Assembly: GCA_031257375.1 (NCBI GenBank)
Contig: JAIROU010000136.1
Location: forward strand, 1-34,329
Reading direction: 5' to 3'
DNA length: 34,329 bases
From: Bifidobacteriaceae bacterium
Lineage (GTDB): Bacteria > Actinomycetota > Actinomycetes > Actinomycetales > WQXJ01
The number at the start of each line of letters is the position of its first letter. Positions within the stretch are counted from its first letter, which is position 1. Of this stretch, positions 1 through 19,364 are shown piece by piece. The position numbers were made by a program, and so were the translations under genes. Below the pieces are notes generated by a model. The model was given only the letters and a program-made list of their open reading frames with translations. It had not been told where the DNA came from and did no database searches.

Positions 1-505
1 AGGCGACGAACTCGCGGAACAGGCTGAACGGAGGGTTGGTGATGATGAAGTCAGCCTCGTCGCGCAGCTTCGTGACCTCGGTGCCGCGGAAGTCGCCGTC
101 CCCCTCAAGGTAGCGCCACTGCAAGTCTTCGATGTTGGCCGCGCCGTCCTGGTTGACGTCATCGGCCTCCAGAGTGAACAGCTTCCCCTTCACAAGGTCC
201 CTGGCCTGGTCGAACTGGGGGTCACCGAACAGAGTCGGCTGGTAATAGGCGCCGCCGGCGTTGCTGTCCGGCGCGTAGCTGGTCGAGATCAGCTTCTTCA
301 ACCCGAAGTCAGCGAAGTGCAGCGCGAAGAACTTGGTGAAGTTGCTCCACTCCGGGTCATCGCATGGCAGCAGGACGACCTTGCCGCGGAACACATCGGG
401 GTTGTACTCCAAGTAGGCGTTCATCTCCCGTTCGATGTCCGCCCACTGAGTGTAGAACTCGTCGTTCTTCGCACGCTTGGCCGAAGCCAGGTTCGCGTTG
501 GCCAT
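1..505 (-). CDS. N6-adenine DNA methyltransferase, EcoRI-methylase-like family (partial; 3' end runs off the window)
   Basis: Not in the ORF track because it is open to the window edge. The minus strand has ATG at 505-503, preceded by GGAGGAAGGAG. It translates as MANANLASAKRAKNDEFYTQWADIEREMNAYLEYNPDVFRGKVVLLPCDDPEWSNFTKFFALHFADFGLKKLISTSY...DFIITNPPFSLFREFVA. The N-terminal KNDEFYT block, the (V/I)xxPCDD block and the catalytic NPPF motif are typical of the EcoRI-type adenine methylase family. Confidence 0.7.
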   Translation of the reverse strand, partial: MANANLASAKRAKNDEFYTQWADIEREMNAYLEYNPDVFRGKVVLLPCDDPEWSNFTKFFALHFADFGLKKLISTSYAPDSNAGGAYYQPTLFGDPQFDQARDLVKGKLFTLEADDVNQDGAANIEDLQWRYLEGDGDFRGTEVTKLRDEADFIITNPPFSLFREFVA

Positions 506-759: not shown

Positions 760-1839
760 GTGAGCGGGAGCGACGGTGCCACCAAGAACAAGGATGGCAG
801 TGGGGCGAAGTCAGATGATCAGGGCCTGCCAGAGGCCGCTTCGGCTGAACGGCGTCCAACGGAGCGCGCCACTGAAGCAGCGGTTCAGGCCCCGCATGGC
901 AATTCGTCCTGGGCTGGGCGAGGCGTCGCCCAGTTGCCACGGTTGGCGTCGCTTCCTGAGCTGATTGACTTCAGCTTTCCTGTCTCAGCGTCCTGGTCAA
1001 AGGTGTGGGAGCAGATCGGACGGAGCTTCTTGGCCAATATCGAGTTCCCGCGAATTGACCTGGGCGCGGGAGTGGCGTCTCTTCTCGGGCGCATCGATTT
1101 TGGCGCTTTCGACATTTCGCGCGGGTTAGCCAAGATCTTCGAGGCACAGCAAGCGCACCTGCTTGAAGCCCTGGCCAGTATCCGCCTCCCAGCGAATCGG
1201 GACCTGTACCCGCCGAACCTCAAGGACATTGATGGGCTGACGCTGGAAGAGATTCGAGAAGTCGCAATGGGCGACGGAATCGCGCTGTATCGCGTGCCTC
1301 GCAAGTCAACGGCCGAAGCCCTGATCCGAGCGCCCGGCGCTTCTGCGCGCCGACAAGTCCTCGGGCGGCGCTGGGCATCGATCTCTGCCGACTGCAGGGC
1401 ATGCGCGGAAGGCTGGGTCTCCGAGGCGACGGTACCGCTCAGAGCGGCAACCCTAGCCGCTCTCGACGCTTGCGACAGCGGCCACACCCAAGCGGCACAG
1501 GCGCTGACGGGATCCCTTGTGGACACGATCGTCCGCCGGTTGCTTGGTCAGGACCGACCCAAGTACGTCGAGAGCAAGGACACGACAACCAGCATCGCCT
1601 ATGACGATCTCACGGTTGGCGAGTTCATAGCCTTTGCCCCAATCTGGTCCGCGCACCTGAAGTTCTATCCCAGCGAGGGCGCGGCCGTGCCATCGGTGTT
1701 CAATCGACACGCCACGGCACACACCGTCAGCGCCAAACAGTTCAACCGGAGGAACACCATCCAAGCGCTGATGCTGGCATGCGGGCTGATCTCTTGGGCG
1801 GAAGACCAGATGCCCCATTCTGGGACGGTGGAGCATTGA
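760..1839 (+). CDS. hypothetical protein (359 aa), no recognisable family; C-terminal NRHATAH (Rx4H) motif weakly compatible with HEPN
   Basis: Long ORF with a GTG start at 760, co-directional with the kinase gene 113 bp downstream. Composition is lower-GC by eye than the core genes. The first ~60 aa are low complexity, so the true start may lie further downstream. The only motif seen is FNRHATAHTVS. Confidence 0.5.
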   Translation: MSGSDGATKNKDGSGAKSDDQGLPEAASAERRPTERATEAAVQAPHGNSSWAGRGVAQLPRLASLPELIDFSFPVSASWSKVWEQIGRSFLANIEFPRIDLGAGVASLLGRIDFGAFDISRGLAKIFEAQQAHLLEALASIRLPANRDLYPPNLKDIDGLTLEEIREVAMGDGIALYRVPRKSTAEALIRAPGASARRQVLGRRWASISADCRACAEGWVSEATVPLRAATLAALDACDSGHTQAAQALTGSLVDTIVRRLLGQDRPKYVESKDTTTSIAYDDLTVGEFIAFAPIWSAHLKFYPSEGAAVPSVFNRHATAHTVSAKQFNRRNTIQALMLACGLISWAEDQMPHSGTVEH

Positions 1840-2122
1840 GAGTTTCCACCGCTGCGGCCTTCTGCCGGAACCCGCAAAAAATCTACGGCAACGCCAGCCC
1901 GAGCGGCGCGCGGGATGCGTTTGACAGACCACGTTAGGAGTGGAACGACGCCATGCCTCTTGCAGCTGACCTAATGCTCAGCGATCTCAAGCAACGTTAC
2001 GCTGCTCGCGCTGCGACAGACGCTTTCACTCGGCTCTATGATGATCGGGAGTTCGGTCACATGTTCTCCGTGCTGCACCAGTGTCTCAACCAGCACTTTA
2101 TCGACATCAACGGTCGCGCTAA

Positions 2123-3114
2123 GAGGCTGTTTGGGAACCTGGCGGTGCGGCGTGTCGGGTCTGTGACGTGGGGGAACTCCTGGTAGCAAGGGAGCGACAA
2201 AACCACCCTTCCACCAGGAGTTCCGGTGCTAGTCTGCCTCACTTCCCCAGGCGGCGGCGAATCGGGGTGCTGTCGGCTCGCCGGGTACCACCCCGACGGG
2301 CGTGTGAGGCCCCGCCGCTACCCGACCGACCTGACCGACGCCCAGTGGGCGGTCCTCGACCCGCTCCTGCCCGACCCGGCATGGGCGGCCGGGCTCGGTG
2401 GACGCCCCGAGAAGCACTGCCGAAGACGGGTCGTGGACGCGATCTTGTACGTCCTGGACAACGGCATCAAGTGGCGCGCCCTGCCAGCGGACTTCCCGCC
2501 CTGGCAGACCGTGTACAGCCTGTTCCGCCGCTGGGAGCAGGCCGACGCCTCCGAGCGGATTCTGGACACCTTGCGCGACCGGGTCCGGCTCAAAACGGGC
2601 CGCGAAGCCGCGCCGTCGGCCGCGGTGATCGACTCCTCCTCGGTCAAAGGCGCACCCACCGTCGGCGGCCCGACCAGGGGATACGACGCCGGGAAGAAGG
2701 TCTCGGGCCGAAAACGCCACATCGCTGTGGACACTATGGGGCTGCTCATCTGCGTCCTGGTCACCGCCGCCAACGTCCAAGACCGCGACGGCGCCCGGCC
2801 CCTGCTCGAACTCCTGGCCGACGCCAGCGCCCGACTCAAACTCGTGTGGGCAGACGGCGGGTACGCGGGCAAACTCATCGACTGGGCCCGCCAGGCCACC
2901 GGCCTGGTCGTGTCCGTCGTCAAACGGACCGAACAGCACAAGTTCGTCGTCCTGCCCCGCCGCTGGGTCGTGGAACGGACCCTCGCCTGGATCGCCAGGC
3001 ACCGGCGCTGCGCCAAAGACTACGAGACACTCCCCGCCTGCCACGAGGCCTGGGTCCGCTGGTCACAGATCCGACTACTGCTCAGACGACTCGAATAAGT
3101 TCCCAAACAGCTTC
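2123..3114 (+). mobile_element. IS5-family insertion sequence (992 bp) with 16-bp terminal inverted repeats and a 3-bp TAA target-site duplication
   Basis: The left end is GAGGCTGTTTGGGAAC (2123-2138). The right end is GTTCCCAAACAGCTTC (3099-3114), whose reverse complement is GAAGCTGTTTGGGAAC, giving a 15/16 match. TAA lies at 2120-2122 and again at 3115-3117. There is a single transposase ORF inside. Confidence 0.85.
2226..3098 (+). CDS. IS5-family DDE transposase (DUF4096-type N-terminus + DDE_Tnp_1-type core)
   Basis: The translation contains TDLTDAQWAVLDPLLP, ILYVLDNGIKWRALPADFPPWQTVYSLFRRW, AVIDSSSVKG, GYDAGKKVSGRKRHIAVDTMGLL, WADGGYAG and RRWVVERTLAWI..RRCAKDYE, all typical of IS5-family transposases. 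The GTG at 2226 is the longest start. The GTG at 2304 (VRPRRYPTDL...) is a plausible real start. Confidence 0.85.
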   Translation: MLVCLTSPGGGESGCCRLAGYHPDGRVRPRRYPTDLTDAQWAVLDPLLPDPAWAAGLGGRPEKHCRRRVVDAILYVLDNGIKWRALPADFPPWQTVYSLFRRWEQADASERILDTLRDRVRLKTGREAAPSAAVIDSSSVKGAPTVGGPTRGYDAGKKVSGRKRHIAVDTMGLLICVLVTAANVQDRDGARPLLELLADASARLKLVWADGGYAGKLIDWARQATGLVVSVVKRTEQHKFVVLPRRWVVERTLAWIARHRRCAKDYETLPACHEAWVRWSQIRLLLRRLE

Positions 3115-4139
3115 TAAGACAACCCACCATTACTGGGCCGAACCCAGTCGCGACCTGCTTTCGCTCATCGATGAGCTTTGGGAGGATCTTGGCGGTCTGA
3201 ACAGTATCGGCATCGAGGTGGCGCTCGACCGGAGATACCGCGACGCGCTCGAACGCGTTCGGCCTTGGCTGTCGAGCAGCGGCGGCAGTACCGTGCCCGA
3301 CGATTTTGAGCTTATCGAGGTGATCAAGTTCGAACCGGTGTTCACCCGATCGGCTACCGCTGTGGGCCTCGGGAAGAACACGGCGCCCGCGAAGCTCGCA
3401 ATGATCGGGGAGGGCTCATACGCAACGGTGTATTCCTTCGTTGACCCCGACTACGGCATCAAGGTCGCCGTCAAGCGCGCCAAGCGAGGGATCAGCGAGC
3501 GTGACCTCTACCGCTTCAGACAGAAGTTCGAAGTCATGAAAGCTTTGAACTTCCCCTACATCGTCCAGGTTTACCGATACGGCAACGACCGCAACGAATA
3601 CCTTATGGAGTTCTGTGATGAGACCTTGAGAACATACATAGCGAGCCGGAACAGCGACCTCTCGTTCTTGTCACGAAAGCGGATTGCCCTTCAGTTCCTC
3701 TACGGCATCAACTACCTCCACAGCGAGGGCTTGCTCCACCGTGACGTCAGTCTTCAGAATGTGCTGCTCAAGGTCTACGCCAAGGGCGCGGTCTTGGTGA
3801 AGCTGTCCGACTTCGGTCTCGTTAAGGATCGGGATTCCGAGTTCACGCGGACGCGAACAAACATGCGGGGAACGATCAGGGACCCCCTTCTCCACAGCTT
3901 CAAGGACTACGACGTCGTCAATGAGATCTACTCCATCGGATGGGTTCTTTCCTACATTTTCACTGGCCGCGAAGCGCTGGCCACGTCTGGCGGACCCGTA
4001 GGTGCGATCATTGAGAAATGCACGGTCAACAACGCCGAGCAGCGTTACCAACGCGTCCTCGCCTTGATTTCTGACGTTGAAGGCCTCCCTGCCACCCCGA
4101 CAGACGCTCCCGCCTAGACATGGCGCGGCCATCGCGTGG

Positions 4140-4226: not shown

Positions 4227-7200
4227 CTACAGCGATGGTCCGGGCCGCCTGCTGGTCTCGTTGTGCTTGGCAACGACAGGCGCCAGTCCGCGGCGTATCC
4301 GCTGCACCCGTTCGACCGCCTCCCTTGCTGCTTCCTCGGTGGCAGCCCGTGCGGATTCGATCAGAGTGGCGGCCTCGCCGATGGGCAGGGCGCGCAGTTC
4401 GGCGGCCTGTCTGCGAGCGGTTTCCGCATTGGCGCGGGCGGCGGCGGCTTGCCGGGCGGGGTTGGTGAGCCTGGCCCGCACCGGGTCGCGGCGGACTTGT
4501 TCGGCCCCGTATTCGGCAGCCAGCAGCGCCATCCGCTCGCGCTCGTGCCGCGCCCCGGTCGCATCTTGGGCGGCCTTCACGGCCTGGACCGTCCGGGTCG
4601 CGGCAACCACGCCGGGGTCGCTCTCGGCCTGCTTCTTTGCTTGCTCGACGGCCCAGGCGCCCATGGTGTCGGCGTCTCGCGGGGCCTCGTTCCAGGCGGC
4701 GCGGACCCGTTGACGAGCCTGGTCGGCCTTTGCGGCCGCGCTGCGGTGCTCGGTTCTGGCGCGGCGCCGGGCGAACCTGCCAACCGTGGCGGCTCTGGAG
4801 CGGGCGGCGGCTTCGTCCGCGACGGCCGCCAGGAACTCCGCGCCTTCGGTTTCGGCCCGGACGGCCAGCGGTGCCGCCGCCTGGGCGAGTATCCGCGCGG
4901 CGTGTTCCTCGGCCCGGCGCACCGCGGCGGCGGCTTGCTCGTCTTCGGCTTGGTGGGCGGCGCGTTGGTTGTCGAGCCGGGAGGCGGTCTGCTCCCACCG
5001 GCCGGCGCGGAGGTCCGCCTGCCTGGCTTGCTGGTCGAGGCGGGCCAGTTCGGCGGCGACCAGGCTGGCCGGGCCGTCAGCGACGAGGCCGGACACTGCC
5101 TCCTTGGCGGCCTGGGCGGCGGCGGACAGGCCCCGGTCGGCGCGGTCGCGTCCCATCGCCTCAACATACTGGGCTTTGGCGTCGGCCATGCCGACGGCCA
5201 CGACGTGCAGGGTGTTGGTTTGTCGGCCCCGGGTCATCCCGACGTAGACGCCGGCCGCGCCCAACCCGTCAGACAACACCGTGTGCGACTGCGCGACGGT
5301 GGCGCCTTGGACGCCGTAGGCTGTGGCGGCGTAGGCAAGGTGGGTGTGCCCGGCCACGTATTCGGAGGGCAGGAGCACCGTCCTGGGGCGCTTGCGGCCG
5401 ACGCTGGTCTCGCGGGCGCGGACGGCGCCGTCCTCGGCGACTTGTTGGACGGTCCAGGTTTCCCGGTTCGCCACGCCCAGGCGGGCATCGTTCAACCGGG
5501 TTTGGATCACATCGCCCGCGCCGATGGGCAGCCCGTCGCAACCGGCCGCGGTCAACGTGTCGTCAACCTGGCCGCGTTCCACCCGCTCGGCGCGGATTTG
5601 CTGGTTCAACAAGGCGGCCTCGTCGTTGGTGGCCGCGGTGACGGCCGAGCCGTCCGAATGCCCGGCGGCGATGTGGTCGCGCAGCGAGTCCTCGTCGGTG
5701 TGCAACTGGACCAGGCCCAGGTTCCGCAACTGGTCGAACACGCCCGCCGGGTCCGCGCCGTCGCGCATTTGGATCGTCAATTGGGCGTATTCGGGGTCGT
5801 TGAACCGGTGGACGCTGGCCATGTCGAACACCCGGCCCCTGATCTGGGCGGCCATGTCCAACACCCCGCCCCGCCCAACTGCCGGGAGTTGGGCGCGGTC
5901 CCCGACCAGGGCGATGGTCGCGCCCGCTTGTTTGGCTACGGTGAGCAGCGCGATGGCGGTGTCCTGGTCGAGCATGCCGGCCTCGTCCACTATCACCCTC
6001 TCGCCCCTCGCCAGCCTGGCCGCCGGGGGCGGGCCGGCGTAAACGGCCCCGGTGGCGGGGTCCGGGTCGCCGGTCTGGAGGCGGGTCCACACGCCGTCTT
6101 GGTTCCACCGCCACCCGTGGGCGTGGACCAGCGCGGCCGCCGAGCCTGCGGGGACTCCGAGTTCTTGTTCTGCGGCCCGGGCGGCGCGCAGTGTCGGGGC
6201 GACCAGCCGCGCCGCCCGATCCGTCCTCGCGGTGGCGGCGATGGCGGCGCCGAGCATGGTGGTCTTGCCGGCCCCGGCCGCGCCCTCCACTATCACCAGC
6301 GGATCGGTTGACGCGATCTCGGCGGCCGCCGCCGCCTGGTCCGGGTCCAGGTTCATTGCGGTGGCCAGGTCCGCAAGGTCGGGGAGGTCAGGTTCTGCGC
6401 TGGGGACGCTGGTTTGCAGCAGGTCGCGCAGCGCCAGGTCGGCTTCGATGACGCGCAGGGAAGTCCAGTGCGCGGCGTGCTCCGGGGCGGGCGCGCCCAA
6501 CGGCAGCACCGAGAAGCAGTCCTCCAACGCCAACCGCGCGGCGATGGCGGTGAACTCGCGCAACTCGGCGGGGGTGGCGGTGACGCCGTGCTCGGTGGTG
6601 ATCCGGGTGACATGCTCCAAGATGGTGTGCGCGGTCCAGGTTGACGCGGCCGCGGCGCACCGGTCCAACGCCCTTGACGCGACCTGCTGGACGCTCAGAT
6701 CGGCCAGCGCGACCGGCGTGGACTGCGCGGCGCGGCGCAGCCCGGCGGGGTCGCAACCCGCCTGGCGCAATTCCGCCCGCCACCATTCCTCGCCGCGCAG
6801 CAGGTCGGGCTTCTTGCCGGGCCGGCCGCGCGCCCACGCGGTGGCCTGCATCCTGGCCGTCAACGCCGGGCCGGGAGTCTCGCCCGGATGCGCCGCCTCC
6901 CACTCGGCGCGCATCTCGGCCAGGTTCCGCTGGATCTGCGCAGAGCGTTTGCTCATTACACCGTTGAACTGCTGCAACTCGATGACCTCCCCGGACACCG
7001 GGTCGAGCGTCAAACCGCAACTGTCCAATGCCGCCGCAAGCCGCGGGTGGGCAGCGATCACCGCCGCGCCCAAAGCCCGGATCGCGCCTTGCTGCTTGAA
7101 CAGCGCCGCCGTGTCGAGCGCCCGCCACGCCCCGGCGGCGTAGACCCTCGCGCCGATCTGCAAATGGCTGTGGCAGTGCGGGTCCCCCGCCCGGCTGGTG

Positions 7201-7679
7201 CGGTGCGCGATGCCCACGGCCTGCAACCGCTCCACCGCGACGACCTCCTGCGAGCCGCGCGGCCCCACCCTGGTCACCGAATGGGCCGCCAGCCACCGTT
7301 TGATCTCGGCCACCGCGTCACGCTGCGCCAAGTCCAACGCCGCAGACACCTCCGGGTGCAGAACCGCCGCCACCGACAGCGACTTCGGCGCGTTGACAAC
7401 CATCTCCGCGAACAACGGCGAACCCCGCCGCCCCTCGCACGGCAGGCGAGGCTTGCCCATCTTCTCCCCGGTCGCGGGGTCGGCCCAGTTGACCCACGCC
7501 TCGTACTCGTCGGCGGACAAGGAGCGCTGGCTGATCGTTTCGCCGTCCGGCCCCAACTCGGCCCATTCGGCCACGCTGCCGCCGCCGAGGTAGTAGTCGT
7601 CGACGCGGGAATGATCTGCCTCCACGTAGCGGCGCGCGGCCGCGCCCGAGCCCCGGAACAGGACCACCCCGCCCGTCAT
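4227..7679 (-). CDS. traA: conjugative relaxase-helicase, MobF/TrwC-TraA type, with a long Ala/Arg/Glu-rich C-terminal tail
   Basis: The N-terminal relaxase domain has the histidine triad HRTSRAGDPHCHSHLQI. A central AAA_30/RecD-like helicase has Walker A VIVEGAAGAGKTTMLG and Walker B RVIVDEAGML. The C-terminal ~350 aa looks like low-complexity coiled coil. The start is chosen at the ATG at 7679 (MTGGVVLFRGSG...), preceded by AGGGAGGG; the track ORF extends to 7724. Confidence 0.85.
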   Translation of the reverse strand: MTGGVVLFRGSGAAARRYVEADHSRVDDYYLGGGSVAEWAELGPDGETISQRSLSADEYEAWVNWADPATGEKMGKPRLPCEGRRGSPLFAEMVVNAPKSLSVAAVLHPEVSAALDLAQRDAVAEIKRWLAAHSVTRVGPRGSQEVVAVERLQAVGIAHRTSRAGDPHCHSHLQIGARVYAAGAWRALDTAALFKQQGAIRALGAAVIAAHPRLAAALDSCGLTLDPVSGEVIELQQFNGVMSKRSAQIQRNLAEMRAEWEAAHPGETPGPALTARMQATAWARGRPGKKPDLLRGEEWWRAELRQAGCDPAGLRRAAQSTPVALADLSVQQVASRALDRCAAAASTWTAHTILEHVTRITTEHGVTATPAELREFTAIAARLALEDCFSVLPLGAPAPEHAAHWTSLRVIEADLALRDLLQTSVPSAEPDLPDLADLATAMNLDPDQAAAAAEIASTDPLVIVEGAAGAGKTTMLGAAIAATARTDRAARLVAPTLRAARAAEQELGVPAGSAAALVHAHGWRWNQDGVWTRLQTGDPDPATGAVYAGPPPAARLARGERVIVDEAGMLDQDTAIALLTVAKQAGATIALVGDRAQLPAVGRGGVLDMAAQIRGRVFDMASVHRFNDPEYAQLTIQMRDGADPAGVFDQLRNLGLVQLHTDEDSLRDHIAAGHSDGSAVTAATNDEAALLNQQIRAERVERGQVDDTLTAAGCDGLPIGAGDVIQTRLNDARLGVANRETWTVQQVAEDGAVRARETSVGRKRPRTVLLPSEYVAGHTHLAYAATAYGVQGATVAQSHTVLSDGLGAAGVYVGMTRGRQTNTLHVVAVGMADAKAQYVEAMGRDRADRGLSAAAQAAKEAVSGLVADGPASLVAAELARLDQQARQADLRAGRWEQTASRLDNQRAAHQAEDEQAAAAVRRAEEHAARILAQAAAPLAVRAETEGAEFLAAVADEAAARSRAATVGRFARRRARTEHRSAAAKADQARQRVRAAWNEAPRDADTMGAWAVEQAKKQAESDPGVVAATRTVQAVKAAQDATGARHERERMALLAAEYGAEQVRRDPVRARLTNPARQAAAARANAETARRQAAELRALPIGEAATLIESARAATEEAAREAVERVQRIRRGLAPVVAKHNETSRRPGPSL

Positions 7680-7737
7680 TTCGCCCTCCCTGGTGAGTTG
7701 TTTCACCAGGCAGGTGCGCATCATCTACCTGCGGTAG

Positions 7738-7852: not shown

Positions 7853-8204
7853 AATTCGGAGTCGGAGTCGCGTGGATGAGCTTCCTCATCAGTCATTCAG
7901 CGCCTGCGGCGCGCCGTGGGCTGGGAAAGCCGGGAATAGTGGGCGAGTTTCCGGGATGGGCGGGGCTTGCGGGGTGACTCCGGGCGGGGCATGATCGGCG
8001 TGGGACGTTCGCCGGGGCATCCCCGGAAACCTTCTTGGGGCCCGTGAGCCCGGTAATCAGTCTGGCGGATGGTGGCCTTTCCGCGGTCGGGACCGTGGCT
8101 TGTCGCTTTGAGCACGTGCGTCAGAATCGCACAGAGATGTATTTCCCAGGCCGCCGCCCGGGGTCCGTCCTGACCGGATGAGGGGACAACGGACGGAGGA
8201 GGCT

Positions 8205-9536
8205 ATGGAGGTCGTGCACCCGCGGTGCGCGGGGATGGACATATCGAAGACGGACGCGAAGGTGTGCGTCCGCGCGCAGGGCGCCGGGAGGCGCAAGACC
8301 TCGACGGAGGTGACCGAGTGGGCGGCGAAGACGTCGAAGGTCATGGAGTTGGCGGACTACCTGCTGGCCCAGAAGGTGACATGTGTGGTGATGGAGGCGA
8401 CCGGGAACTATTGGAAGATCTTCTGGCATTTGCTGACGGGCGCTGGTTTGGAGGTGGTGTTGGCGAACGCGGCCCGCGTGAGGCAGATCCCGGGAAAGAA
8501 GACGGACATAGCGGACTGTGTCTGGTTGGCGGATTTGTGCGCGCACGGGCTGGTTGCGGCGTCGTTCGTGCCGCCTGCGCCGGTCGCCCAGTTGAAGGAT
8601 CTGGTCCGGGCGCGGGCGAAGTACGCGAAGGTCGCGGGCCAGGAGGCCCAAAGGCTGCAGGACGTGCTGGAGTCCGCGGGGGTGAAGCTGTCGTGCGCGG
8701 TGACGGACATTATGGGCGTGTCGGGCCGGCGAATGGTCGAGGCATTGATCGCGGGCGAGGGGGACCCGCTCAAGCTGGCGCGTTTGGGCGAGCGGAACCT
8801 GAAGGCGTCCGAGGAGGAGTTGGCGGAGGCGTTGACGGGCCGGTTCTCGGAGCACCACGCGTTCTTGGCGAGAACCCATTTGGACACGATAGACCACCTC
8901 CGTGGCAAGGCCGCCGCGTTGGACGCCCGGATCGACGCGTTCTTCGACCCGGACTGTGAGATCCCGGCGGGTGGTTCGGGGGCGGGTTTGTCGCGGGAAG
9001 AGCGGGAGGAGTGGCGCAGCAAGCGGGAGTTGTTGCAGACGGTGCCGGGCGTGTCGGAGACGGTCGCGGAGCAGATCCTGGCGGAGACAGGCCCGGACAT
9101 GTCGGTGTTCGCCTCGCCTAAGCATTTGGCGTCGTGGGCGGGGGTCGCGCCGGGCATGAACCAGTCCGCGGGTCGGGCCAAGCCGACCAAGGCGAAGAAG
9201 GGCGACAAGCATCTGAAGGGCGCTCTGGGGGTGGCGGCGCTGTCCGTCGCGCGGCATCCGGGGACGTTCCTCCATTCCCGTTATAGGCGGGTGTGCGCGC
9301 GGCAGGGGAAGATGAAGGCGTTGGTCGCCGTCGAGCGGTCCATGGTGGTGTCCATATGGCACATTCTTTCTAAGGGCGAGCCGTACCGGGAGTTGGGCGC
9401 CGACTATTATCTGCGGCGCAGGCCTGGCGCGGCGATACGCAAAGCGGTGGACAACCTGCGCCGCCTCGGGTTCGAGGTGGATGTCAACGACGGGGAAGCG
9501 CCGACGGCTGTGCTCACCCCGGTCCCGCTCGGGTGA
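8205..9536 (+). CDS. IS110-family (DEDD) transposase; the ends of the IS itself are not resolved
   Basis: MEVVHPRCAGMDISKTDAKVCV..., VVMEATGNYW, GKKTDIADCVWLADL, and C-terminal PGVSETVAEQILAETG...FASPKHLASWAGVAPGMNQSAGR...KGDKHLKGAL are typical of the IS110 family. The start at ATG 8205 is preceded by GGAGGAGG; the track ORF begins at 8178. Confidence 0.85.
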   Translation: MEVVHPRCAGMDISKTDAKVCVRAQGAGRRKTSTEVTEWAAKTSKVMELADYLLAQKVTCVVMEATGNYWKIFWHLLTGAGLEVVLANAARVRQIPGKKTDIADCVWLADLCAHGLVAASFVPPAPVAQLKDLVRARAKYAKVAGQEAQRLQDVLESAGVKLSCAVTDIMGVSGRRMVEALIAGEGDPLKLARLGERNLKASEEELAEALTGRFSEHHAFLARTHLDTIDHLRGKAAALDARIDAFFDPDCEIPAGGSGAGLSREEREEWRSKRELLQTVPGVSETVAEQILAETGPDMSVFASPKHLASWAGVAPGMNQSAGRAKPTKAKKGDKHLKGALGVAALSVARHPGTFLHSRYRRVCARQGKMKALVAVERSMVVSIWHILSKGEPYRELGADYYLRRRPGAAIRKAVDNLRRLGFEVDVNDGEAPTAVLTPVPLG

Positions 9537-9730
9537 CGCCACCGCTCATCACCGCGTGGCCGAGTTGGCTTTCGCGTCAGCGTCGGCGAGAATCTGTAGG
9601 TGCATGAAGGATCGCCGCGCTCAACCGGCATCGGGATCGTCCCCGGCGTCGCCCTCGGTTTTCCTGACAGTTTCCTTCTGGTTTACCGAACTGGCCTACG
9701 CTGGTGAGAGGTCGCTGCGAAGGGGTGAAG

Positions 9731-10852
9731 ATGACCATCAGGCGCAGGCTGTTCCTCTCGAACACCCTCATGCTCGTGCTGCCCGTCTTCCTCACCCTCG
9801 CAACCTTCGTTGCGGGAGAGTTGGTCTTGTTGCATCTGTTCGGCTTCGACGTGGAGGTGGACAGCGCAGAGCCCGAAGGCGACGAGTTGACCGCTCATCT
9901 GGCCATCGTGGCGGCGCTGCTGGCCTTCATAATCGTGATCGTTGTGGTGACGAACCGTGTGCTGACTCATTTCGTGACGAAGCGGATCACGACCTCCATC
10001 GACACCCTGAGTTCGGGTGTCCACGAGTTGCGGGACGGCAATCTGGACTACCGCATTGACTACAGCCGGGACGATGAGTTCCGGCCGGTTTGCGCCGACT
10101 TCAATGAGATGGCCGAGCGTTTGTCCGACATGGTGGCTGCGCGCCAGCGGGATGAGGCGAGCCGCCGCGAGTTGATCGCTGGGATCTCGCACGACTTGAG
10201 GACCCCGCTGACGGCGATCAAGGCGTACCTTGAGGGCTTGGACAAGGGTGTGGCGAGCACTCCCGAAGACCGGCGGCGCTACTTGGACACGATCCGGGCC
10301 AAAGCCGACGATCTGGAGCACATCATCAGCCAACTGTTCTTGTTCACCAAACTGGACCTGGGCGAGTTCCCGCTCTGTCTGGAGCGCGCTGACGTGGGGC
10401 GAGCGCTCAGAGAGTTCGTCGCTTCGGTCGAGTCCGAGTACGCGGCCAAGGGGTTGACGGTGAGTCTCGCCCCGCCTCCGGACGCCTTGTGGGCGAATCT
10501 CGACATCGTGCAGTTCCGCAACGTCCTCCACAATGTGCTGGCAAACAGCGTCACCTACGCGACAGGCGACGGCCCGGGGTCCCTGATCGAACTGTCGGGC
10601 GACGGCGTCAGCATCACAGTGTCACTGACGGATGACGGCCCCGGCGTGCCCCCGGAGTCCACCGGCAGGTTGTTCGACATGTTCTACCGGGCTGATCTCG
10701 CCCGCCAGGACTCGGCCAACGGTTCCGGTTTGGGCCTGGCCATCGCGAGGAAGATGGTCGGGCGCCTGGGTGGGGCGATGAGGGCCGAGAATGCCGAGCC
10801 TCACGGTCTGAGGATCGTGGTGACGCTCCCCAGGGTGGAAGGTGACAGGTGA
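9731..10852 (+). CDS. sensor histidine kinase (two TM helices with a very short external loop, HAMP, HisKA, HATPase_c)
   Basis: H-box ELIAGISHDLRTPLTAI, N-box HNVLANSVTYA, G-boxes DDGPGVP and GSGLGLAIARKMV. The N-terminus has two hydrophobic segments separated by about 20 aa. The start at ATG 9731 (MTIRRRLF) follows GAAGGGG. Confidence 0.85.
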   Translation: MTIRRRLFLSNTLMLVLPVFLTLATFVAGELVLLHLFGFDVEVDSAEPEGDELTAHLAIVAALLAFIIVIVVVTNRVLTHFVTKRITTSIDTLSSGVHELRDGNLDYRIDYSRDDEFRPVCADFNEMAERLSDMVAARQRDEASRRELIAGISHDLRTPLTAIKAYLEGLDKGVASTPEDRRRYLDTIRAKADDLEHIISQLFLFTKLDLGEFPLCLERADVGRALREFVASVESEYAAKGLTVSLAPPPDALWANLDIVQFRNVLHNVLANSVTYATGDGPGSLIELSGDGVSITVSLTDDGPGVPPESTGRLFDMFYRADLARQDSANGSGLGLAIARKMVGRLGGAMRAENAEPHGLRIVVTLPRVEGDR

Positions 10853-11541
10853 AGAAGAGGGTCCTCATCATTGAGGACGACCGCGCCATCGCCGAGATCG
10901 AGCGGGACTTCTTGGAGATCGACGGCTTCGACACGGTCATCTGCTCGGACGGATCGGTCGGTCTCCGCGCGGCGCAAACCGAGGCGTTCGACCTCATCTT
11001 GCTCGACTTGATGCTGCCCGGTGTGTCCGGCCTCGACATTTGCCGCGCCGTCCGGGGTTCGACCGACGTGCCTATCCTCATGGTGACGGCGCGCACTGAG
11101 GACGCCGACAAGGTGCGCGGCCTTGGCCTGGGCGCCGACGACTACATCGCCAAACCGTTCTCGCCGACCGAATTGGTCGCCAGGGTCAAGGCGAACCTGG
11201 CCCAGTACGACCGCCTGAAACAAGGTGGCCCCGGCCAGGTGCGGGAGTTGAGCATCGGGGCTCTGACCGCGGACCTGGACACGCGCCGGGTCCGGCTGGT
11301 GGACAAGGAGATTGACCTGAAGAACAAGGAGTACGAGTTGCTCGTCTTCTTGATGGCCAACCCAGACATCGTGTTCTCCAAGGACAGGCTGTACGAACGG
11401 GTCTGGGGCGCGGACGCCTTCGGCGACCTCAAGACCGTCGTGGTCCACATCAACCGGTTGCGGGACAAGATCGAACCCGACCCGCAGAACCCCTCCTACA
11501 TTCAGACCGTGTGGGGAGCCGGATACCGCTTCCGCGTTTGA
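10849..11541 (+). CDS. OmpR/PhoB-family response regulator
   Basis: Receiver domain VLIIEDD...DLILLDLMLPG...ADDYIAKPF, plus a winged-helix C-terminus (LKNKEYELLVFLMANPDIVFSKDRLYERVWG...IQTVWGAGYRF). The GTG start overlaps the kinase stop by 4 bp (GTGA), which suggests translational coupling. Confidence 0.9.
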   Translation: MKKRVLIIEDDRAIAEIERDFLEIDGFDTVICSDGSVGLRAAQTEAFDLILLDLMLPGVSGLDICRAVRGSTDVPILMVTARTEDADKVRGLGLGADDYIAKPFSPTELVARVKANLAQYDRLKQGGPGQVRELSIGALTADLDTRRVRLVDKEIDLKNKEYELLVFLMANPDIVFSKDRLYERVWGADAFGDLKTVVVHINRLRDKIEPDPQNPSYIQTVWGAGYRFRV

Positions 11542-11566
11542 GCGCGGGGTTTCGGTTTCCCGACTG

Positions 11567-11583
11567 TTTACCGCCTTTTACCG
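11567..11583 (+). promoter_or_regulatory. direct repeat TTTACCG-N3-TTTACCG (10-bp register), candidate OmpR-family response-regulator box upstream of the NOX-like gene
   Basis: TTTACCG lies at 11567-11573 and 11577-11583, about 85-100 bp upstream of the ATG at 11667. A related TTTCCTT-N4-TTTACCG lies at 9671-9688, about 45 bp upstream of the kinase start. At least one further TTTACCG lies inside the kinase pseudogene (~3568), so the heptamer alone is not unique. Confidence 0.3.
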
Positions 11584-11666
11584 GATCGTGTTCTCGTTGT
11601 GGTCGTCAGTTCGTTCCCTCTGGTCAGGATGGGTGGCGTCTCGCACAGTGAGGGGAATAGAGTCCG

Positions 11667-12911
11667 ATGAAAAGGCACCACCTGCACATGGCAGGGTTGG
11701 TCGCGGTCACCGTCGCGGTCTGGTCTATGACCAGACCGAGCGTTGACATTTCGACCGCCCTGGAAGTCGCGCAGCTGTTCGGCGCACTGTCGTTGGTAGG
11801 CCTTGCCGCCGTCAACTTCATCACCACCCGGCACGGGTCGGTGGACGCCATCTTCGGCGGGCTGGACAAGTCCTACGCCGTGCACAAGCGGCTGAGCGTG
11901 GCCTCCCTGGCGTTGGTCGTCGTCCACGTCGTAATCGCCGTGGAAAACGAACCAGCGGTCGAAGCCGGAGGAGGACACGGTGCTTCGGCCGCGGGGGTCT
12001 TCAGCCTCGTGGCGTTCGCGCTCTTGACGTTGGTCGCCCTGCTCGCCCGGAAGCTCAACTACGAGCGGTGGAAGGCAGTCCACAAGTGGATGGTCCTGCC
12101 GTATGTCATCGGCCTGATCCACTACTACGGGGCTTCCGATTACGCTGTGCTGGCGTGGACGCCGCTGAGTCTCTGGCTCAACGTCGTCAATCTGATCGGC
12201 GTCGCCTCCTGCTTCTACAGCGTGTTCCTTTACGAGCGCCTCGGCTTCCCCTGGCGTGGCCGCGTCGAACACGTCCAGGAAGTCGCGGCGGGCACGGTCG
12301 AGTTCAGGGTGAGGATGAACGGCTTCACGGCGCGACCCGGCCAGTTCGTCTTCCTGAAGGTTAACCCCAAGACCCGACGCTTCCCCTCTCATCCGTTCAC
12401 CGTCAGCGGCCTGTCAGAACGCGGTCTGGTCCAGTTCACGGTAAAGAGCCTCGGCGATCACACGGCTCGGCTGGTCAGGGGGTTGACGGTCGGCGATGCC
12501 GTGTGGCTGAGTCGGGCACACGGCAGGTTCGACTACTCCAAGGGCCGTCCACGGCAGGTGTGGATCGCCGGGGGTATCGGAATCGCGCCTTTCAGGAGCT
12601 TTTACGAGGCTGGTGTCCCGCAAGTCTTCGACATCGACCTGTTCTACGCCTACAACAGTGAGGCCGAGAGTCCCTACTTGCGTGAAGTCAAAGCTCTCGA
12701 CGAAGAGAGCAACATCCGCGTCCACCTGTGCGATTTCACTGAGACCGGCTTCCTGACCGCCAGGCGCATACGACAGCACCTGCACCCCGAAGAGCAGTTC
12801 GACGTCTACTTCTGCGGGCCGAAAGCCATGCTCGGCAGCCTGCTTCCCCAACTGGCCGACATCGAACTCAAACCCGCCAGCGTCCACTACGAGGAGTTCC
12901 AGTTCAAGTAG
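11667..12911 (+). CDS. NOX/ferric-reductase-like flavocytochrome (FRD bis-heme transmembrane domain + FAD/NAD(P)H-binding FNR-like domain)
   Basis: There are two histidine pairs in TM helices with NOX-type spacing: HKRLSVASLALVVVH (Hx13H) and HKWMVLPYVIGLIH (Hx12H). The FAD motif is HPFTVSG and the nucleotide-binding motif is WIAGGIGIAPF. The C-terminus is CGPKAM. Confidence 0.8.
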   Translation: MKRHHLHMAGLVAVTVAVWSMTRPSVDISTALEVAQLFGALSLVGLAAVNFITTRHGSVDAIFGGLDKSYAVHKRLSVASLALVVVHVVIAVENEPAVEAGGGHGASAAGVFSLVAFALLTLVALLARKLNYERWKAVHKWMVLPYVIGLIHYYGASDYAVLAWTPLSLWLNVVNLIGVASCFYSVFLYERLGFPWRGRVEHVQEVAAGTVEFRVRMNGFTARPGQFVFLKVNPKTRRFPSHPFTVSGLSERGLVQFTVKSLGDHTARLVRGLTVGDAVWLSRAHGRFDYSKGRPRQVWIAGGIGIAPFRSFYEAGVPQVFDIDLFYAYNSEAESPYLREVKALDEESNIRVHLCDFTETGFLTARRIRQHLHPEEQFDVYFCGPKAMLGSLLPQLADIELKPASVHYEEFQFK

Positions 12912-14556: not shown

Positions 14557-14718
14557 CTCTGCCGCAATGGCGCGGCCCGTGGCGTGCTTGATGCGCGCGC
14601 CACGCCATCAGCTTGTCCTTGACGGCACCGGACCTCCGACAATGCGGGGGCACCCTCCGCCGCGGCTGGGACGTGCCGCGCACCTGTCAGGTGTCCGCAC
14701 ATTCCCACGGGAGGATCG

Positions 14719-15408: not shown

Positions 15409-15519
15409 GGCCCCGTCGCGGGACCGCCCGCGAGTCAGCCGCCCCGGTGGCCCTGTCGCCGTCAAGGCCGTTTCGCGCTGTGGCACCATGCCGGGGCCTG
15501 CCGGTTCCGGGGTAGCCCA

Positions 15520-17649: not shown

Positions 17650-19203
17650 TCACGCTCTCCACACCAACTCGACCCGCTGGGCGAGTAGCCGCCGACGGTG
17701 GTCGCGGAGCCTGGCGGCGTAGGACTCGTCCGTGTCTGCCTTCCGCCTCGGGATTACCGCGGCCACCCCGCCGGGGTGGGCGTGGACCAGCACCGCTTCA
17801 AGGACCAGGCTGGCGGCGGCGTGCCGCCACGCGACGGTCCGCCCCTCCCACTCGTCCGCCACGCTCGCCATGTCCACGCCCTGCCCGACCAGCACCTCTG
17901 GCTGTCGCGCCGCCCAGTCTTTCTGCCGGGCCGCGATCCGCTGGCTGATCCGAGCCCGCTGGCGCGCCCACGTCGCCTTGTCGATCAGCCCGTCGTAATG
18001 GTCGTCGTCCAACTCCTCCAACGCCGCCCGATCCGCGTCGAGTCGCCTCCCCAACACATCGAGGGCGCCACCGGCTGTTTGGACGCGGCCCAGGCCCGGC
18101 TTCAACGCGATCTGGGCGAACACCGACAAAACGGCTTCTTCGGCCAACTCGGTCACCTCGCGGGCGTCGATGCTCCGAGCGCAGGCGCCCGGCGTCGGCG
18201 GAACACACGAATAGGCCGGTCCCTGTTTGCGCATCGCGGTCCCGCACCTGGAGCACCGGATCAGCCCGCTGAAGACATGCACCCGCTTGGTGGAACCCGG
18301 CCAGGTGGTCCGCGCCGCCTTGCGGGCGTCCAGCACATCTTGGACCCGCCGCCAAGTCTCGTCGTCCATCAACGGCTCCCACACCGCCGCAGTCTCGACC
18401 ACGGGTTCCGGGGCCGGTGCCCCGTCAGCTTGGACCGGCCGGTAAACCCGCACAGCCTTCGTCGCAGGATTCCGCAGCATGCACTTGAGCGCGTGCTCGG
18501 TCCACAAACAGCCCTTCGCTGACCGCAGCCCGCGCGCGTTCCAGTCGCAGCGGATCCGATAAAGCGAATCCCCCGCCAACACGCGGTCCACCGCCTCCAG
18601 CAGCAAGGCCGCCTGCTCGGGCACCACTTGCAAGGTGTCTTTGGCAGACCGGTACCCGAACGGCGGCGTCCCGCCAGGCCACTTGCCTTCCACCGCGCTC
18701 TGTCTCTTCGCGCGCGCGACACGGCGCGCGGTGTCAGCGCTGGACTTGTTCGCCATCGCGACCAGCACCCGCGCCATCGCCACGTCTGCGTCAGTGTCCA
18801 AACGCAAAGAGCCAGTCACTGAACGGACCCCGAACCCGTAGAGCACTTTCGCGTCTATCAGATCCTCCAAATCGCGCGGGTCGCGCACGGCCCGGTCGAG
18901 ATCGTAAGCGACCATCACATCCGCGCCCTTTTGGGCCAGGCGTCCCAACATCGCCCTGAACCCCGGCCGGACGACCCGGCGGACCCTCTCTCCACTCGCC
19001 AGCGTGATGACACGCTGCTTGAACGCCGACGTATCGTTCTCCCTGAACACTTCAACAACTTCCCAACCGTTGGCCTCAGCCAACGCCCGACAATCCTGTT
19101 CTTGCCGGTCAACGCCCCGTTCGAGGCCAGCCGGATCGTCACTGATCCTCACATACAACACAACCCGACGATCCGATCCGACGCCCTCCACACTCCCGCC
19201 CAT
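17650..19203 (-). CDS. large serine recombinase (resolvase catalytic domain + recombinase domain + zinc ribbon + coiled coil)
   Basis: VVLYVRISDD (catalytic Ser), VDRQEQDCRALA, RPGFRAMLGRL, VMVAYDLDRAVRDPRDLEDLID, PPFGYR, and a Cys cluster CSRCGTAMRK...YSCVPPTPGAC. The start is chosen at the second ATG (19203), which follows GGAGGGGA; the track ORF begins at 19218. Confidence 0.85.
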   Translation of the reverse strand: MGGSVEGVGSDRRVVLYVRISDDPAGLERGVDRQEQDCRALAEANGWEVVEVFRENDTSAFKQRVITLASGERVRRVVRPGFRAMLGRLAQKGADVMVAYDLDRAVRDPRDLEDLIDAKVLYGFGVRSVTGSLRLDTDADVAMARVLVAMANKSSADTARRVARAKRQSAVEGKWPGGTPPFGYRSAKDTLQVVPEQAALLLEAVDRVLAGDSLYRIRCDWNARGLRSAKGCLWTEHALKCMLRNPATKAVRVYRPVQADGAPAPEPVVETAAVWEPLMDDETWRRVQDVLDARKAARTTWPGSTKRVHVFSGLIRCSRCGTAMRKQGPAYSCVPPTPGACARSIDAREVTELAEEAVLSVFAQIALKPGLGRVQTAGGALDVLGRRLDADRAALEELDDDHYDGLIDKATWARQRARISQRIAARQKDWAARQPEVLVGQGVDMASVADEWEGRTVAWRHAAASLVLEAVLVHAHPGGVAAVIPRRKADTDESYAARLRDHRRRLLAQRVELVWRA

Positions 19204-19364
19204 ACGTGTCCCCTCCATCTCTATCCGAGACGCAGGTACGTTTACGCTCCCCAGCCATGCCGCCCTTCGCCAAGTTAGAAATCCAAAGTGGAGGGTAAAT
19301 GGAGGGTCGGAACCGATGTAAGGCCTTACCCGGCCAGAAAAACATGCTCTGACCTGCTAAAACG

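What the first reader, a model, noticed from the sequence alone, without database searches (positions are those of the whole stretch)
760..4117. Candidate undescribed defence-like two-gene cassette: unknown 359-aa protein + kinase with a novel N-terminal domain
Two co-directional genes lie 113 bp apart. Both are visibly lower in GC than the surrounding DNA, and they sit inside a mobile element. A divergently transcribed EcoRI-family adenine methyltransferase lies next to them. Gene 1 has no family I can recognise; its only motif is an Rx4H element (NRHATAH), as used by HEPN RNases. Gene 2, once the IS is removed, encodes about 390 aa. That product has an unassigned ~150-aa N-terminal domain followed by a complete Hanks kinase (IGEGSYATVY, VAVKRAK, HRDVSLQN, DFG). 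The HRDxSxxN catalytic loop is unusual compared with the canonical HRDLKPxN. Kinase-based anti-phage systems are established (Stk2, PglW in type 2 BREX, the TerY-P triad), but this pairing matches none of them. Inactivation by an IS is a common fate of costly or toxic defence genes.
Basis: partly seen in the sequence, partly recalled or inferred. Interest (0 to 1): 0.72.

Follow-up and report, generated by a model that had tools for sequence, protein, structure and literature searches.

The report
Two unlinked accessory genes, not a cassette
The two neighbouring genes are real, but their relatives are not neighbours elsewhere: one is an IS-broken copy of a widespread sensor-plus-kinase protein of the abortive-infection type, and the other belongs to a small uncharacterised family found on mobile elements and beside restriction systems.

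Summary
The sequence features are confirmed. Gene 1 is 760-1839. Gene 2 (1953-2123 + 3119-4117) is split by an intact 990-bp IS5-family element and reads as 389 aa once the IS is removed. Both genes have lower GC than the window, and a partial EcoRI-type methyltransferase lies upstream on the opposite strand.

None of 53 genomic loci with a gene-1 homologue has the kinase within 10 kb. Only 1 of 66 kinase loci has a weak gene-1-like gene, and it is not adjacent. Neither family has any conserved neighbour.

Gene 2 belongs to a large, multi-phylum family. Its ~146-aa helical N-terminal domain also occurs fused to Abi_C (AbiJ-type HEPN), TIR, CAP12-TIR and DUF559 nuclease domains. This fits the AbiJ-NTD1 + kinase architecture predicted computationally in 2013. 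The HRDxSxxN catalytic loop is a family-wide signature. I read gene 2 as a single-protein, Stk2-like abortive-infection kinase that is inactivated here.

Gene 1 belongs to an actinobacterial family of about 140 proteins, all unannotated, with an invariant Rx4H motif. No detectable HEPN or other fold match was found. Its relatives recur in prophages, conjugative elements and next to R-M systems.

Overall the finding is ordinary to moderately interesting.

The parts
1..505 (-). 5' part of an EcoRI-family N6-adenine DNA methyltransferase gene (start codon at 505-503; the gene runs off the window)
   Evidence: The translation MANANLASAKRAKNDEFYTQW...ITNPPFSLF matches PF13651 EcoRI_methylase with E=3.7e-56, profile positions 1-156 of 345.
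760..1839 (+). Gene 1: 359-aa ORF (alternative TTG start at 943 gives 298 aa). It belongs to a family of about 140 unannotated proteins, almost all actinobacterial. The conserved all-alpha C-terminal ~200 aa carries the invariant motif F-S/N-R-H/N-A-T-A-H (Rx4H).
   Evidence: Searches cover the ORF, the homologues and the invariant residues. One search gives the AlphaFold model (pLDDT 74, all helical). No Pfam, NCBIfam, PADLOC, PDB or BFVD match was found.
1953..2123 (+). Gene 2, 5' fragment: codons 1-57 of the N-terminal (AbiJ-NTD1-like) domain
   Evidence: The frame continues at 3119 once the IS is removed. Full-length homologues were found.
2124..3113 (+). IS5-family insertion sequence, 990 bp, with 15-nt imperfect terminal inverted repeats. 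The CTAAG target duplication lies at 2119-2123 and 3114-3118. This is the only copy in the window.
   Evidence: Inverted repeat I2; sequence; a blastn self-search finds only this copy.
2226..3098 (+). IS transposase, 290 aa, a single intact frame
   Evidence: PF13340 DUF4096 with E=9e-29 and PF01609 DDE_Tnp_1 with E=1.4e-27.
3119..3385 (+). Gene 2, remainder of the N-terminal domain (aa 58-146). It includes the family-wide H-Y-W-A-x-x-S-R and G-G-S-x-V-P motifs.
   Evidence: Alignments A2 and A3. A profile search found 377 representative proteins with this domain.
3386..4117 (+). Gene 2, protein kinase domain (aa 147-389) and stop codon. Motifs: G-loop aa 153-161, K176, HRDVSLQN aa 264-271, DFG aa 288-290.
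   Evidence: Pfam Pkinase E=1e-27. PADLOC mad6 2e-34, Stk2 1e-29, PD-T4-6 1.5e-24, all over the kinase domain only. Foldseek matches PknB, FAK and JAK kinase domains.
4227..7724 (-). TrwC-type relaxase/helicase (1165 aa), convergent with gene 2; marker of the conjugative element that carries the two genes
   Evidence: PF08751 TrwC with E=4.9e-42 and AAA_30 with E=2.3e-39. The closest kinase homologue (P0078) also lies next to a TrwC relaxase.
17650..19218 (-). Large serine recombinase next to tRNA-Ala (19364-19437) and tRNA-Ile; probable integration end of the element
   Evidence: Resolvase, Recombinase and Zn_ribbon_recom domains; tRNAs; chromosomal DUF3566, gyrA, gyrB and dnaA lie to the right.

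Best explanation
Genes 1 and 2 are two independent accessory (cargo) genes. They happen to be neighbours in the variable region of an integrated conjugative element; they are not a functional pair.

Gene 2 encodes a single-polypeptide, abortive-infection-type defence protein. Its ~146-aa helical N-terminal domain is best matched by AbiJ-NTD1 in the literature. I infer that this domain acts as the sensor or auto-inhibitory module and that the C-terminal Ser/Thr kinase is the effector. On that inference, when the N-domain meets a phage component the kinase is released and phosphorylates many cellular and/or phage proteins, arresting growth, as shown for staphylococcal Stk2. In this genome the gene is dead, because an intact IS5-family element sits after codon 57.

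Gene 1 is a stand-alone member of a small family, almost all actinobacterial, that travels in prophages, conjugative and integrative elements, and beside R-M-type systems. My working guess is a single-gene defence or toxin-like function that uses the invariant Arg/His pair, possibly a very divergent HEPN-like RNase.

Shown here: the gene structures, the IS insertion, the family memberships, the lack of conserved linkage, and the modular domain swapping. Inferred: the sensor role of the N-domain, kinase-mediated abortive infection, and any function for gene 1.
For: No linkage:
- 0 of 53 gene-1 loci contain the kinase, and 1 of 66 kinase loci contain a weak, non-adjacent gene-1-like ORF.
- The closest relatives are also unlinked.
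- Neither family has a conserved neighbour or a conserved small upstream ORF.

Kinase as a modular defence protein:
- An N-domain profile finds 377 representative clusters.
- Among the top 150, 67 carry the kinase, 13 Abi_C, 3 DUF559, 1 TIR_2 and 1 CAP12-TIR.
- AbiJ_NTD3 co-occurs in some of them.
- The 2013 HEPN survey lists AbiJ-NTD1 (~140 aa, mostly helical) fused to AbiJ HEPN, S/T/Y kinase, REase and nucleoside deoxyribosyltransferase domains. It proposes that these N-terminal domains sense phage components and gate toxic effectors (PMC3710099).
- The catalytic residues are invariant across 32 homologues: G-loop, K176, D266, N271 and DFG; the alphaC Glu E193 is nearly invariant.
- The kinase domain scores best against defence kinases in PADLOC.

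Context of kinase homologues:
- Tyrosine and serine recombinases, GntR regulators and FtsK/TraB-like proteins (AICE-like elements), ApeA-HEPN, nSTAND3, PemK toxins, and a lone oppositely oriented gene in Bacillus phage PHBA67-T.
- The family spans many phyla.

Gene-1 contexts:
- A prophage, directly after the lysin genes.
- Between Mrr and a type I R-M system.
- Type I R-M in two further genomes.
- An SNF2 / DUF1156 / HEPN_Swt1-DUF499 island inside an integrase element.
- A conjugative element.
Against: - No member of this kinase family or of the gene-1 family has been tested experimentally, as far as the searched literature shows.
- The N-domain could not be compared directly with the AbiJ-NTD1 type sequence.
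- The N-domain alone matches neither the Stk2 model nor any other PADLOC model, so the Stk2 analogy rests on the kinase domain and the overall logic.
- Defence-island association was judged from about a dozen annotated loci and an ad hoc marker panel (12 of 53 and 17 of 66 loci with a marker). It is not a genome-wide enrichment statistic.
- In this window and in L135 the kinase lies beside the relaxase. That position would also fit an establishment or anti-defence role.
- For gene 1 nothing beyond context and one motif points to any mechanism.
Confidence: 0.66

Rival explanations
1. One reading: genes 1 and 2 (perhaps with the methyltransferase) form one defence operon. Gene 1 would be a HEPN RNase effector controlled by the kinase, a split analogue of RNase L / Ire1.
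For: The genes are co-directional and 113 bp apart, and both have low GC. Gene 1 has an invariant Rx4H motif in an all-alpha domain. One Microbacterium island (L131) contains both a kinase homologue and a 33%-identical gene-1-like ORF.
Against: Adjacency is absent in 53 of 53 gene-1 loci and 65 of 66 kinase loci, and in the closest relatives of both genes. In L131 the two genes are separated by a 655-aa ORF. The kinase family is about ten-fold larger and far more widely distributed than the gene-1 family (913 hits, and 356+ loci in many phyla, against about 139 proteins). No HEPN similarity was detected.
Confidence: 0.04
2. The kinase is not a host-protecting defence. It would be a mobile-element tool: an establishment or anti-defence kinase (like the phage T7 kinase that phosphorylates host defences), or a regulator of transfer or lysogeny, expressed from the region next to the relaxase.
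For: It lies next to a TrwC relaxase here and in the closest relative L135. Homologues are frequent in integrative and conjugative elements and occur in a Bacillus phage. Phage and prophage kinases with anti-defence or regulatory roles are documented (PMC13645617 and PMC11341870, listed).
Against: The same N-domain is fused to TIR, CAP12-TIR, Abi_C/HEPN and DUF559 nuclease domains. These are typical suicide effectors, not anti-defence modules. Only 1 of 66 kinase loci has a TrwC homologue nearby. Many copies sit in chromosomal islands with toxin or defence genes.
Confidence: 0.15
3. Gene 1 is a mobile-element maintenance, regulatory or anti-restriction protein rather than a defence or toxin protein. 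Its closeness to R-M systems would simply reflect shared location in variable islands.
For: It is found in a prophage, in conjugative and integrase-bearing elements, and next to an LPXTG surface protein typical of Gram-positive conjugative elements. It has an acidic N-terminal region. There is no hit to any defence model.
Against: In Georgenia and Aldersonia it lies directly beside type I R-M genes, and in Mycolicibacter beside an SNF2/DUF1156/DUF499 system. That is the classic placement of accessory defence genes. The strictly invariant polar residues (R136, R137, C151, R255, H260) suggest catalysis.
Confidence: 0.2

Closest known systems
AbiJ-NTD1-containing Abi-like proteins (Anantharaman, Makarova, Burroughs, Koonin, Aravind 2013, Biol Direct 8:15; PMC3710099)
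   Same: Both have an N-terminal domain of about 140 aa that is mostly alpha-helical, followed by a swappable effector. The fusion partners seen here are Abi_C/AbiJ HEPN, S/T/Y kinase, a REase-fold domain (DUF559) and a TIR/NDT-like domain (CAP12-TIR). These mirror the published partner list. Co-occurrence with AbiJ_NTD3 is also as published.
   Different: Identity with AbiJ-NTD1 could not be tested by sequence, because the type protein Bcep1808_2091 and the paper's alignments were not obtainable. The lactococcal AbiJ model in PADLOC matches only the HEPN part of the relatives. The published description is purely computational.
Stk2 of Staphylococcus epidermidis (abortive-infection Ser/Thr kinase activated by phage protein PacK; PADLOC PDLC02375)
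   Same: Both are stand-alone defence-type Hanks kinases with a non-kinase N-terminal region of roughly 125-150 aa. The kinase domain matches the Stk2 model with E=1e-29. The predicted logic is the same: phage-triggered mass phosphorylation followed by growth arrest.
   Different: The match covers only model positions 128-348 of 500. Ten diverse N-domains scanned alone give no Stk2 hit even at E<=1. There is no C-terminal extension. No Staphylococcus locus appears among the best 80 relatives.
PD-T4-6 (single-gene E. coli kinase defence) and Mad6 of the MADS system
   Same: The kinase domain is similar to both: mad6 E=2e-34 and PD-T4-6 E=1.5e-24. PD-T4-6 is also a single gene.
   Different: In these models the kinase sits at the N-terminus and other domains follow it. 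NCBIfam MAD6 scores 47.8 bits against a cut-off of 460. MADS is an eight-gene system, and no such neighbours are conserved here.
RNase L / Ire1 (kinase fused to a KEN-type HEPN RNase)
   Same: Relatives of gene 2 do pair the same sensor domain with either a kinase or a HEPN (Abi_C) domain.
   Different: Here the kinase and HEPN are alternative effectors on one scaffold, not partners. Gene 1 shows no detectable HEPN homology and is not linked to the kinase.

Membership tests
Conserved two-gene cassette (gene 1 + kinase) | Homologues of the two genes are neighbours in other genomes | tested here: not met
   0 of 53 gene-1 loci and 1 of 66 kinase loci (weak, non-adjacent) within +/-10 kb. The closest relatives are also unlinked.
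Eukaryotic-like (Hanks) protein kinase, Pfam PF00069 | Profile match above the gathering score, and a kinase fold | tested here: met
   97.6 bits against a cut-off of 31.7. Foldseek probability 1.00 to PknB, FAK and JAK kinase domains.
Eukaryotic-like (Hanks) protein kinase, Pfam PF00069 | Catalytic residues: G-loop, VAIK Lys, alphaC Glu, HRD Asp, catalytic-loop Asn, DFG | tested here: met
   G154/G156, K176, H264-R265-D266, N271 and D288-F289-G290 are invariant, and E193 is nearly invariant, in 32 homologues.
Eukaryotic-like (Hanks) protein kinase, Pfam PF00069 | Canonical Ser/Thr catalytic loop HRDxKxxN (the Lys contacts the gamma-phosphate) | tested here: not met
   The loop is HRD[IVL]SxxN. 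The Ser is invariant, appearing in 46 of 47 intact loops across the whole N-domain-kinase family. This is a family signature, not decay.
Stk2 defence kinase (PADLOC PDLC02375) | Full-length match to the Stk2 model, including its N-terminal region | tested here: not met
   Only model positions 128-348 of 500 align. N-domains alone give no hit at E<=1.
Stk2 defence kinase (PADLOC PDLC02375) | Phage-protein-triggered kinase activity causing abortive infection | not testable with these tools
   This needs phage challenge and phosphoproteomics.
MADS Mad6 (NCBIfam NF047741) | Score above the equivalog cut-off, and a multi-gene mad context | tested here: not met
   47.8 bits against 460. No conserved neighbours.
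AbiJ-NTD1 + effector proteins (PMC3710099) | An N-terminal domain of about 140 aa that is mostly alpha-helical | tested here: met
   Domain aa 1-146. The model has helices 2-17, 35-57, 64-86 and 95-107, with pLDDT mostly 80-93.
AbiJ-NTD1 + effector proteins (PMC3710099) | The same domain fused to AbiJ-type HEPN, S/T/Y kinase, REase-fold and NDT/TIR-like effectors | tested here: met
   Abi_C (PF14355), Pkinase, DUF559, CAP12-PCTIR_TIR and TIR_2 were found downstream of the domain in relatives.
AbiJ-NTD1 + effector proteins (PMC3710099) | Sequence or profile similarity to the type sequence (Bcep1808_2091, aa 1-140) | not testable with these tools
   There is no Pfam model. The supplement holds no alignment. 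No Burkholderia locus was recovered.
HEPN superfamily (gene 1) | A conserved Rx4-6H motif in an all-alpha domain | tested here: met
   R255-x4-H260 is invariant in 35 sequences. The model is all helical, but the motif region itself has pLDDT below 55.
HEPN superfamily (gene 1) | Significant profile or fold similarity to a known HEPN family | tested here: not met
   No Pfam hit for any of 35 members. hhalign against an Abi_C alignment gives probability 0.4%. Foldseek against PDB and BFVD finds nothing below E=1. Only one HEPN family was compared by profile, so a very remote relationship is not excluded.
HEPN superfamily (N-domain of gene 2) | A conserved Rx4-6H motif | tested here: not met
   R55 and H61 are invariant only within the actinobacterial clade. 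In distant relatives the Arg is K/S/Q and the His is Y/N/L, and only N53 and S67-R68 stay conserved.
IS5-family insertion sequence | DDE_Tnp_1 transposase, terminal inverted repeats and a short target duplication | tested here: met
   DUF4096 + DDE_Tnp_1; 15-nt inverted repeats and the CTAAG duplication.

The most novel reading that the evidence does not exclude
Gene 1 founds an undescribed single-gene defence or toxin family, almost all actinobacterial. It would be a highly divergent HEPN-like RNase using the invariant R255/H260 pair, riding on prophages and conjugative elements and acting as a second line beside R-M systems. Separately, the AbiJ-NTD1-like kinase family, with its Lys-less HRDxSxxN catalytic loop, would be an experimentally untested and very widespread abortive-infection kinase class, distinct from Stk2 and PD-T4-6.
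Probability: 0.25. Interest if true: 0.6.

Novelty: new member of a known kind. Interest (0 to 1): 0.33.

Why it matters
The proposed new two-gene system does not exist as a unit, so it should not enter a list of candidate systems.

Two things are still useful. First, the analysis links a large, multi-phylum family of about 390-aa 'protein kinase family proteins' to the Abi-type sensor-effector design. Databases give these proteins no further annotation. The family has 913 close hits and 356+ genomic loci. A tractable prediction follows: the N-domain gates a kinase with an unusual Lys-less catalytic loop.

Second, it flags a small orphan family (gene 1) that repeatedly sits in prophage accessory slots and beside R-M systems. 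It is a cheap candidate for a defence screen in Mycobacterium, Streptomyces or Corynebacterium, where few defence systems have been tested.

Tried and rejected
1. Looked for a conserved small upstream ORF (toxin-antitoxin-like) before gene-1 homologues, after seeing overlapping 77-83-aa ORFs in two loci. None is conserved across the 53 loci.
2. Tested whether the long Stk2-model alignments of some relatives meant that Stk2 shares the N-domain. Scanning N-domains alone gave nothing, so I treated those alignments as extensions from the kinase match.
3. Considered the N-domain itself as a HEPN, because of the RAKTTHH stretch. Rejected, because R55 and H61 are not conserved in distant relatives.
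4. Considered a MADS-like system (methyltransferase plus Mad6 kinase). Rejected on score and context.
5. Searched phage genomes for gene 1 by tblastn and found no hit. The plasmid collection gave only chromosomal-type matches for the window.
6. Tried to recover the AbiJ-NTD1 type protein through the paper's supplement and through a genome scan with N-domain + Abi_C proteins. Both failed.
7. Scanned for a promoter or terminator between the two genes. The result was uninformative.
8. Searched for direct repeats that would mark the element's attachment sites near the tRNA genes. None were found.
9. Searched the literature for an experimentally characterised member of either family. None were found.

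Full report
**Observation.** The ORF map and sequence confirm gene 1 at 760-1839 (+). It is 359 aa from a GTG start. The public gene call starts at TTG 943 and gives 298 aa (P0001). The first 61 codons show no GC3 bias, so the true start is uncertain.

Gene 2 begins at ATG 1953, 113 bp downstream of gene 1, behind an AGGAG box. After codon 57 it is interrupted by a 990-bp element (2124-3113). The element has 15-nt imperfect inverted repeats and a CTAAG target duplication. It encodes one intact DUF4096 + DDE_Tnp_1 transposase, which places it in the IS5 family.

Joining 1953-2123 to 3119-4117 gives an uninterrupted 389-aa protein. That protein aligns over its whole length, at 62-75% identity, with hundreds of 389-393-aa proteins, so the reconstruction is correct.

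GC is 62.9% for gene 1 and 57.4% for gene 2, against 67.8% for the window. The divergent upstream gene (1-505, cut by the window edge) is an EcoRI-family methyltransferase, PF13651, E=3.7e-56.

**Context.** Downstream of gene 2 lie a convergent TrwC relaxase/helicase (4227-7724), an IS110 element, a two-component system and other cargo. A large serine recombinase (17650-19218) follows, directly beside tRNA-Ala and tRNA-Ile.

To the right of the tRNAs the window is chromosomal origin-region DNA. It holds DUF3566, gyrA, gyrB, an XcyI-type R-M pair and dnaA. The two genes therefore sit in the cargo of an integrated conjugative element. Its left end lies outside the window.

**Test of the cassette idea.** A scan of one genome per species returned 53 loci with a gene-1 homologue, each with up to 10 kb of flank. 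None contains a homologue of the kinase or of the EcoRI methylase.

The reciprocal scan returned 70 kinase loci, of which 66 were analysed. Only one, from a Microbacterium, has a gene-1-like ORF. That ORF is 33% identical, about 2.8 kb away, and separated from the kinase by a 655-aa gene.

Clustering all neighbouring ORFs found no conserved partner for either family. The only large clusters were shadow ORFs on the opposite strand. No conserved small upstream ORF exists either.

The contig of the closest gene-1 relative (57% identity) carries an LPXTG surface protein and an unknown repeat protein, but no kinase. The contig of the closest kinase relative (75% identity) carries a TrwC relaxase, a zeta toxin and a Dam methylase, but no gene 1.

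**Gene 2: kinase domain.** The kinase domain (aa ~147-389) passes Pfam's threshold and has a kinase fold. The G-loop, K176, HRD, N271 and DFG are invariant, and E193 is nearly invariant, in 32 homologues. The catalytic loop is HRD[IVL]SxxN, not HRDxKxxN. This holds in 46 of 47 intact loops across the whole family, so it is a lineage signature and not a sign of decay.

**Gene 2: N-terminal domain.** The N-terminal 146 aa has no hit in Pfam, NCBIfam, PADLOC or PDB sequences. A profile of this domain was searched against 1.84 billion representative proteins and found 377 clusters.

In the top 150 clusters the domain is followed by:
- the kinase in 67,
- Abi_C, the AbiJ-type HEPN, in 13,
- a DUF559 nuclease-fold domain in 3,
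- TIR_2 in 1,
- CAP12/Pycsar-type TIR in 1,
- unknown tails in 11.

The remaining 54 are short proteins or fragments with no substantial tail after the domain. AbiJ_NTD3 is present in addition in some proteins. A constant N-terminal module with interchangeable toxic effectors is the signature of single-protein abortive-infection systems.

The 2013 HEPN survey describes exactly such a module, AbiJ-NTD1. It is about 140 aa, mostly helical, and fused to AbiJ HEPN, S/T/Y kinase, REase and nucleoside deoxyribosyltransferase domains. The survey proposes that these N-terminal domains recognise phage components and restrain the effector (PMC3710099). I could not obtain the type sequence for a direct comparison. 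The identification therefore rests on description and fusion partners.

**Gene 2: relation to known defence kinases.** Similarity to Stk2, PD-T4-6 and Mad6 is confined to the kinase domain.

Kinase homologues are stand-alone genes. Their neighbours include tyrosine and serine recombinases, GntR regulators and FtsK/TraB-like proteins (AICE-type elements), ApeA-HEPN, nSTAND3 and PemK toxins. One homologue is a lone, oppositely oriented gene in Bacillus phage PHBA67-T.

The wider family occurs in Actinomycetota, Bacillota, Campylobacterota, Elusimicrobiota, Verrucomicrobiota, CPR and other phyla.

**Gene 1.** Searches found only about 76 homologues with the single sequence and 139 with a profile. 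Almost all are from Actinomycetota, a few from Chloroflexota, and none carries a name or a Pfam domain.

The N-terminal 60-100 aa is variable and acidic. The C-terminal ~200 aa is conserved and has invariant polar residues (R136, R137, C151, R255, H260).

The AlphaFold model is all-helical, with pLDDT 74 overall, above 90 for residues ~90-200, and below 55 at the motif itself. It has no match below E=1 in PDB or BFVD. No Pfam hit appears for any of 35 members. A profile-profile comparison with an Abi_C HEPN alignment gives a probability of 0.4%. HEPN membership is therefore unsupported, though a very remote relationship cannot be excluded.

Its genomic contexts are suggestive:
- in M. abscessus prophages, directly after the lysin genes and beside polymorphic-toxin cassettes;
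- in Georgenia, between an Mrr-type nuclease and a type I R-M system;
- beside type I R-M genes in two further genomes;
- in Mycolicibacter, beside an SNF2 / DUF1156 / HEPN_Swt1-DUF499 system inside an integrase-bearing element;
- in Saccharopolyspora, at the edge of a conjugative element.

An ad hoc marker panel found mobile-element or defence markers in 12 of 53 gene-1 loci and 17 of 66 kinase loci. These are lower bounds from single-sequence tblastn, not an enrichment statistic.

Gene 2 is an IS-inactivated member of a very widespread sensor-kinase family. The family was described computationally in 2013 and, as far as the searched literature shows, has not been tested experimentally. It most likely works like Stk2, as a phage-triggered abortive-infection kinase.

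Gene 1 is an orphan family whose function is open. A stand-alone defence or toxin role is the best guess, with low confidence.

Noticed in passing
window 26218-28150 (-): A complete XcyI-family type II restriction-modification pair sits inside the otherwise conserved chromosomal dnaA...gyrB origin cluster. RE_XcyI has E=4.6e-68 and N6_N4_Mtase has E=2.3e-48.
   Followed up: no
window 8178-9536 (+): An IS110-family transposase (DEDD_Tnp_IS110 + Transposase_20) is a second insertion sequence in the element's cargo region.
   Followed up: no
window 9704-12911 (+): The mobile-element cargo includes a HAMP/HisKA histidine kinase, an OmpR-type response regulator and a ferric-reductase-like flavoprotein.
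   Followed up: no
window 15714-15788: A 75-bp stretch is 90.7% identical to an Arthrobacter replicon, and it is co-linear with the tRNA region in Nocardia and Tsukamurella hits. ARAGORN and Rfam find no tRNA there, and no direct repeat with the tRNA genes was found. It could be a remnant attachment or boundary sequence of a nested element.
   Followed up: partly
window 15936-17618 (-) and 12955-13515 (+): A 560-aa ORF next to the serine recombinase and a 186-aa ORF have no Pfam match.
   Followed up: no
L131 (Microbacterium sp. NPDC058021) 9001-15447: One island holds a kinase homologue, a 655-aa unknown protein, a distant gene-1-like protein (314 aa, 33% identity) and an ApeA-type HEPN protein. 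It is the only locus where both families co-occur.
   Followed up: partly
L036-L051 (gene-1 loci): About a dozen gene-1 homologues appear as two out-of-frame pieces or as short fragments. Many are nanopore MAGs, so sequencing error cannot be separated from real pseudogenisation. Truncated kinase copies inside long contigs (L115, L116) were also seen.
   Followed up: no
L137 7324-9143: In one metagenomic contig a gene-1 homologue overlaps by 4 nt the stop codon of a cytidine/MafB19-type deaminase gene. This may be an operon, seen only once.
   Followed up: no
L135 8611-9863 and 10456-15140: The closest kinase relative lies between a TrwC relaxase and a zeta-toxin gene, followed by a Dam methylase and a 1388-aa unknown protein. 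This is a related conjugative element with different cargo.
   Followed up: no
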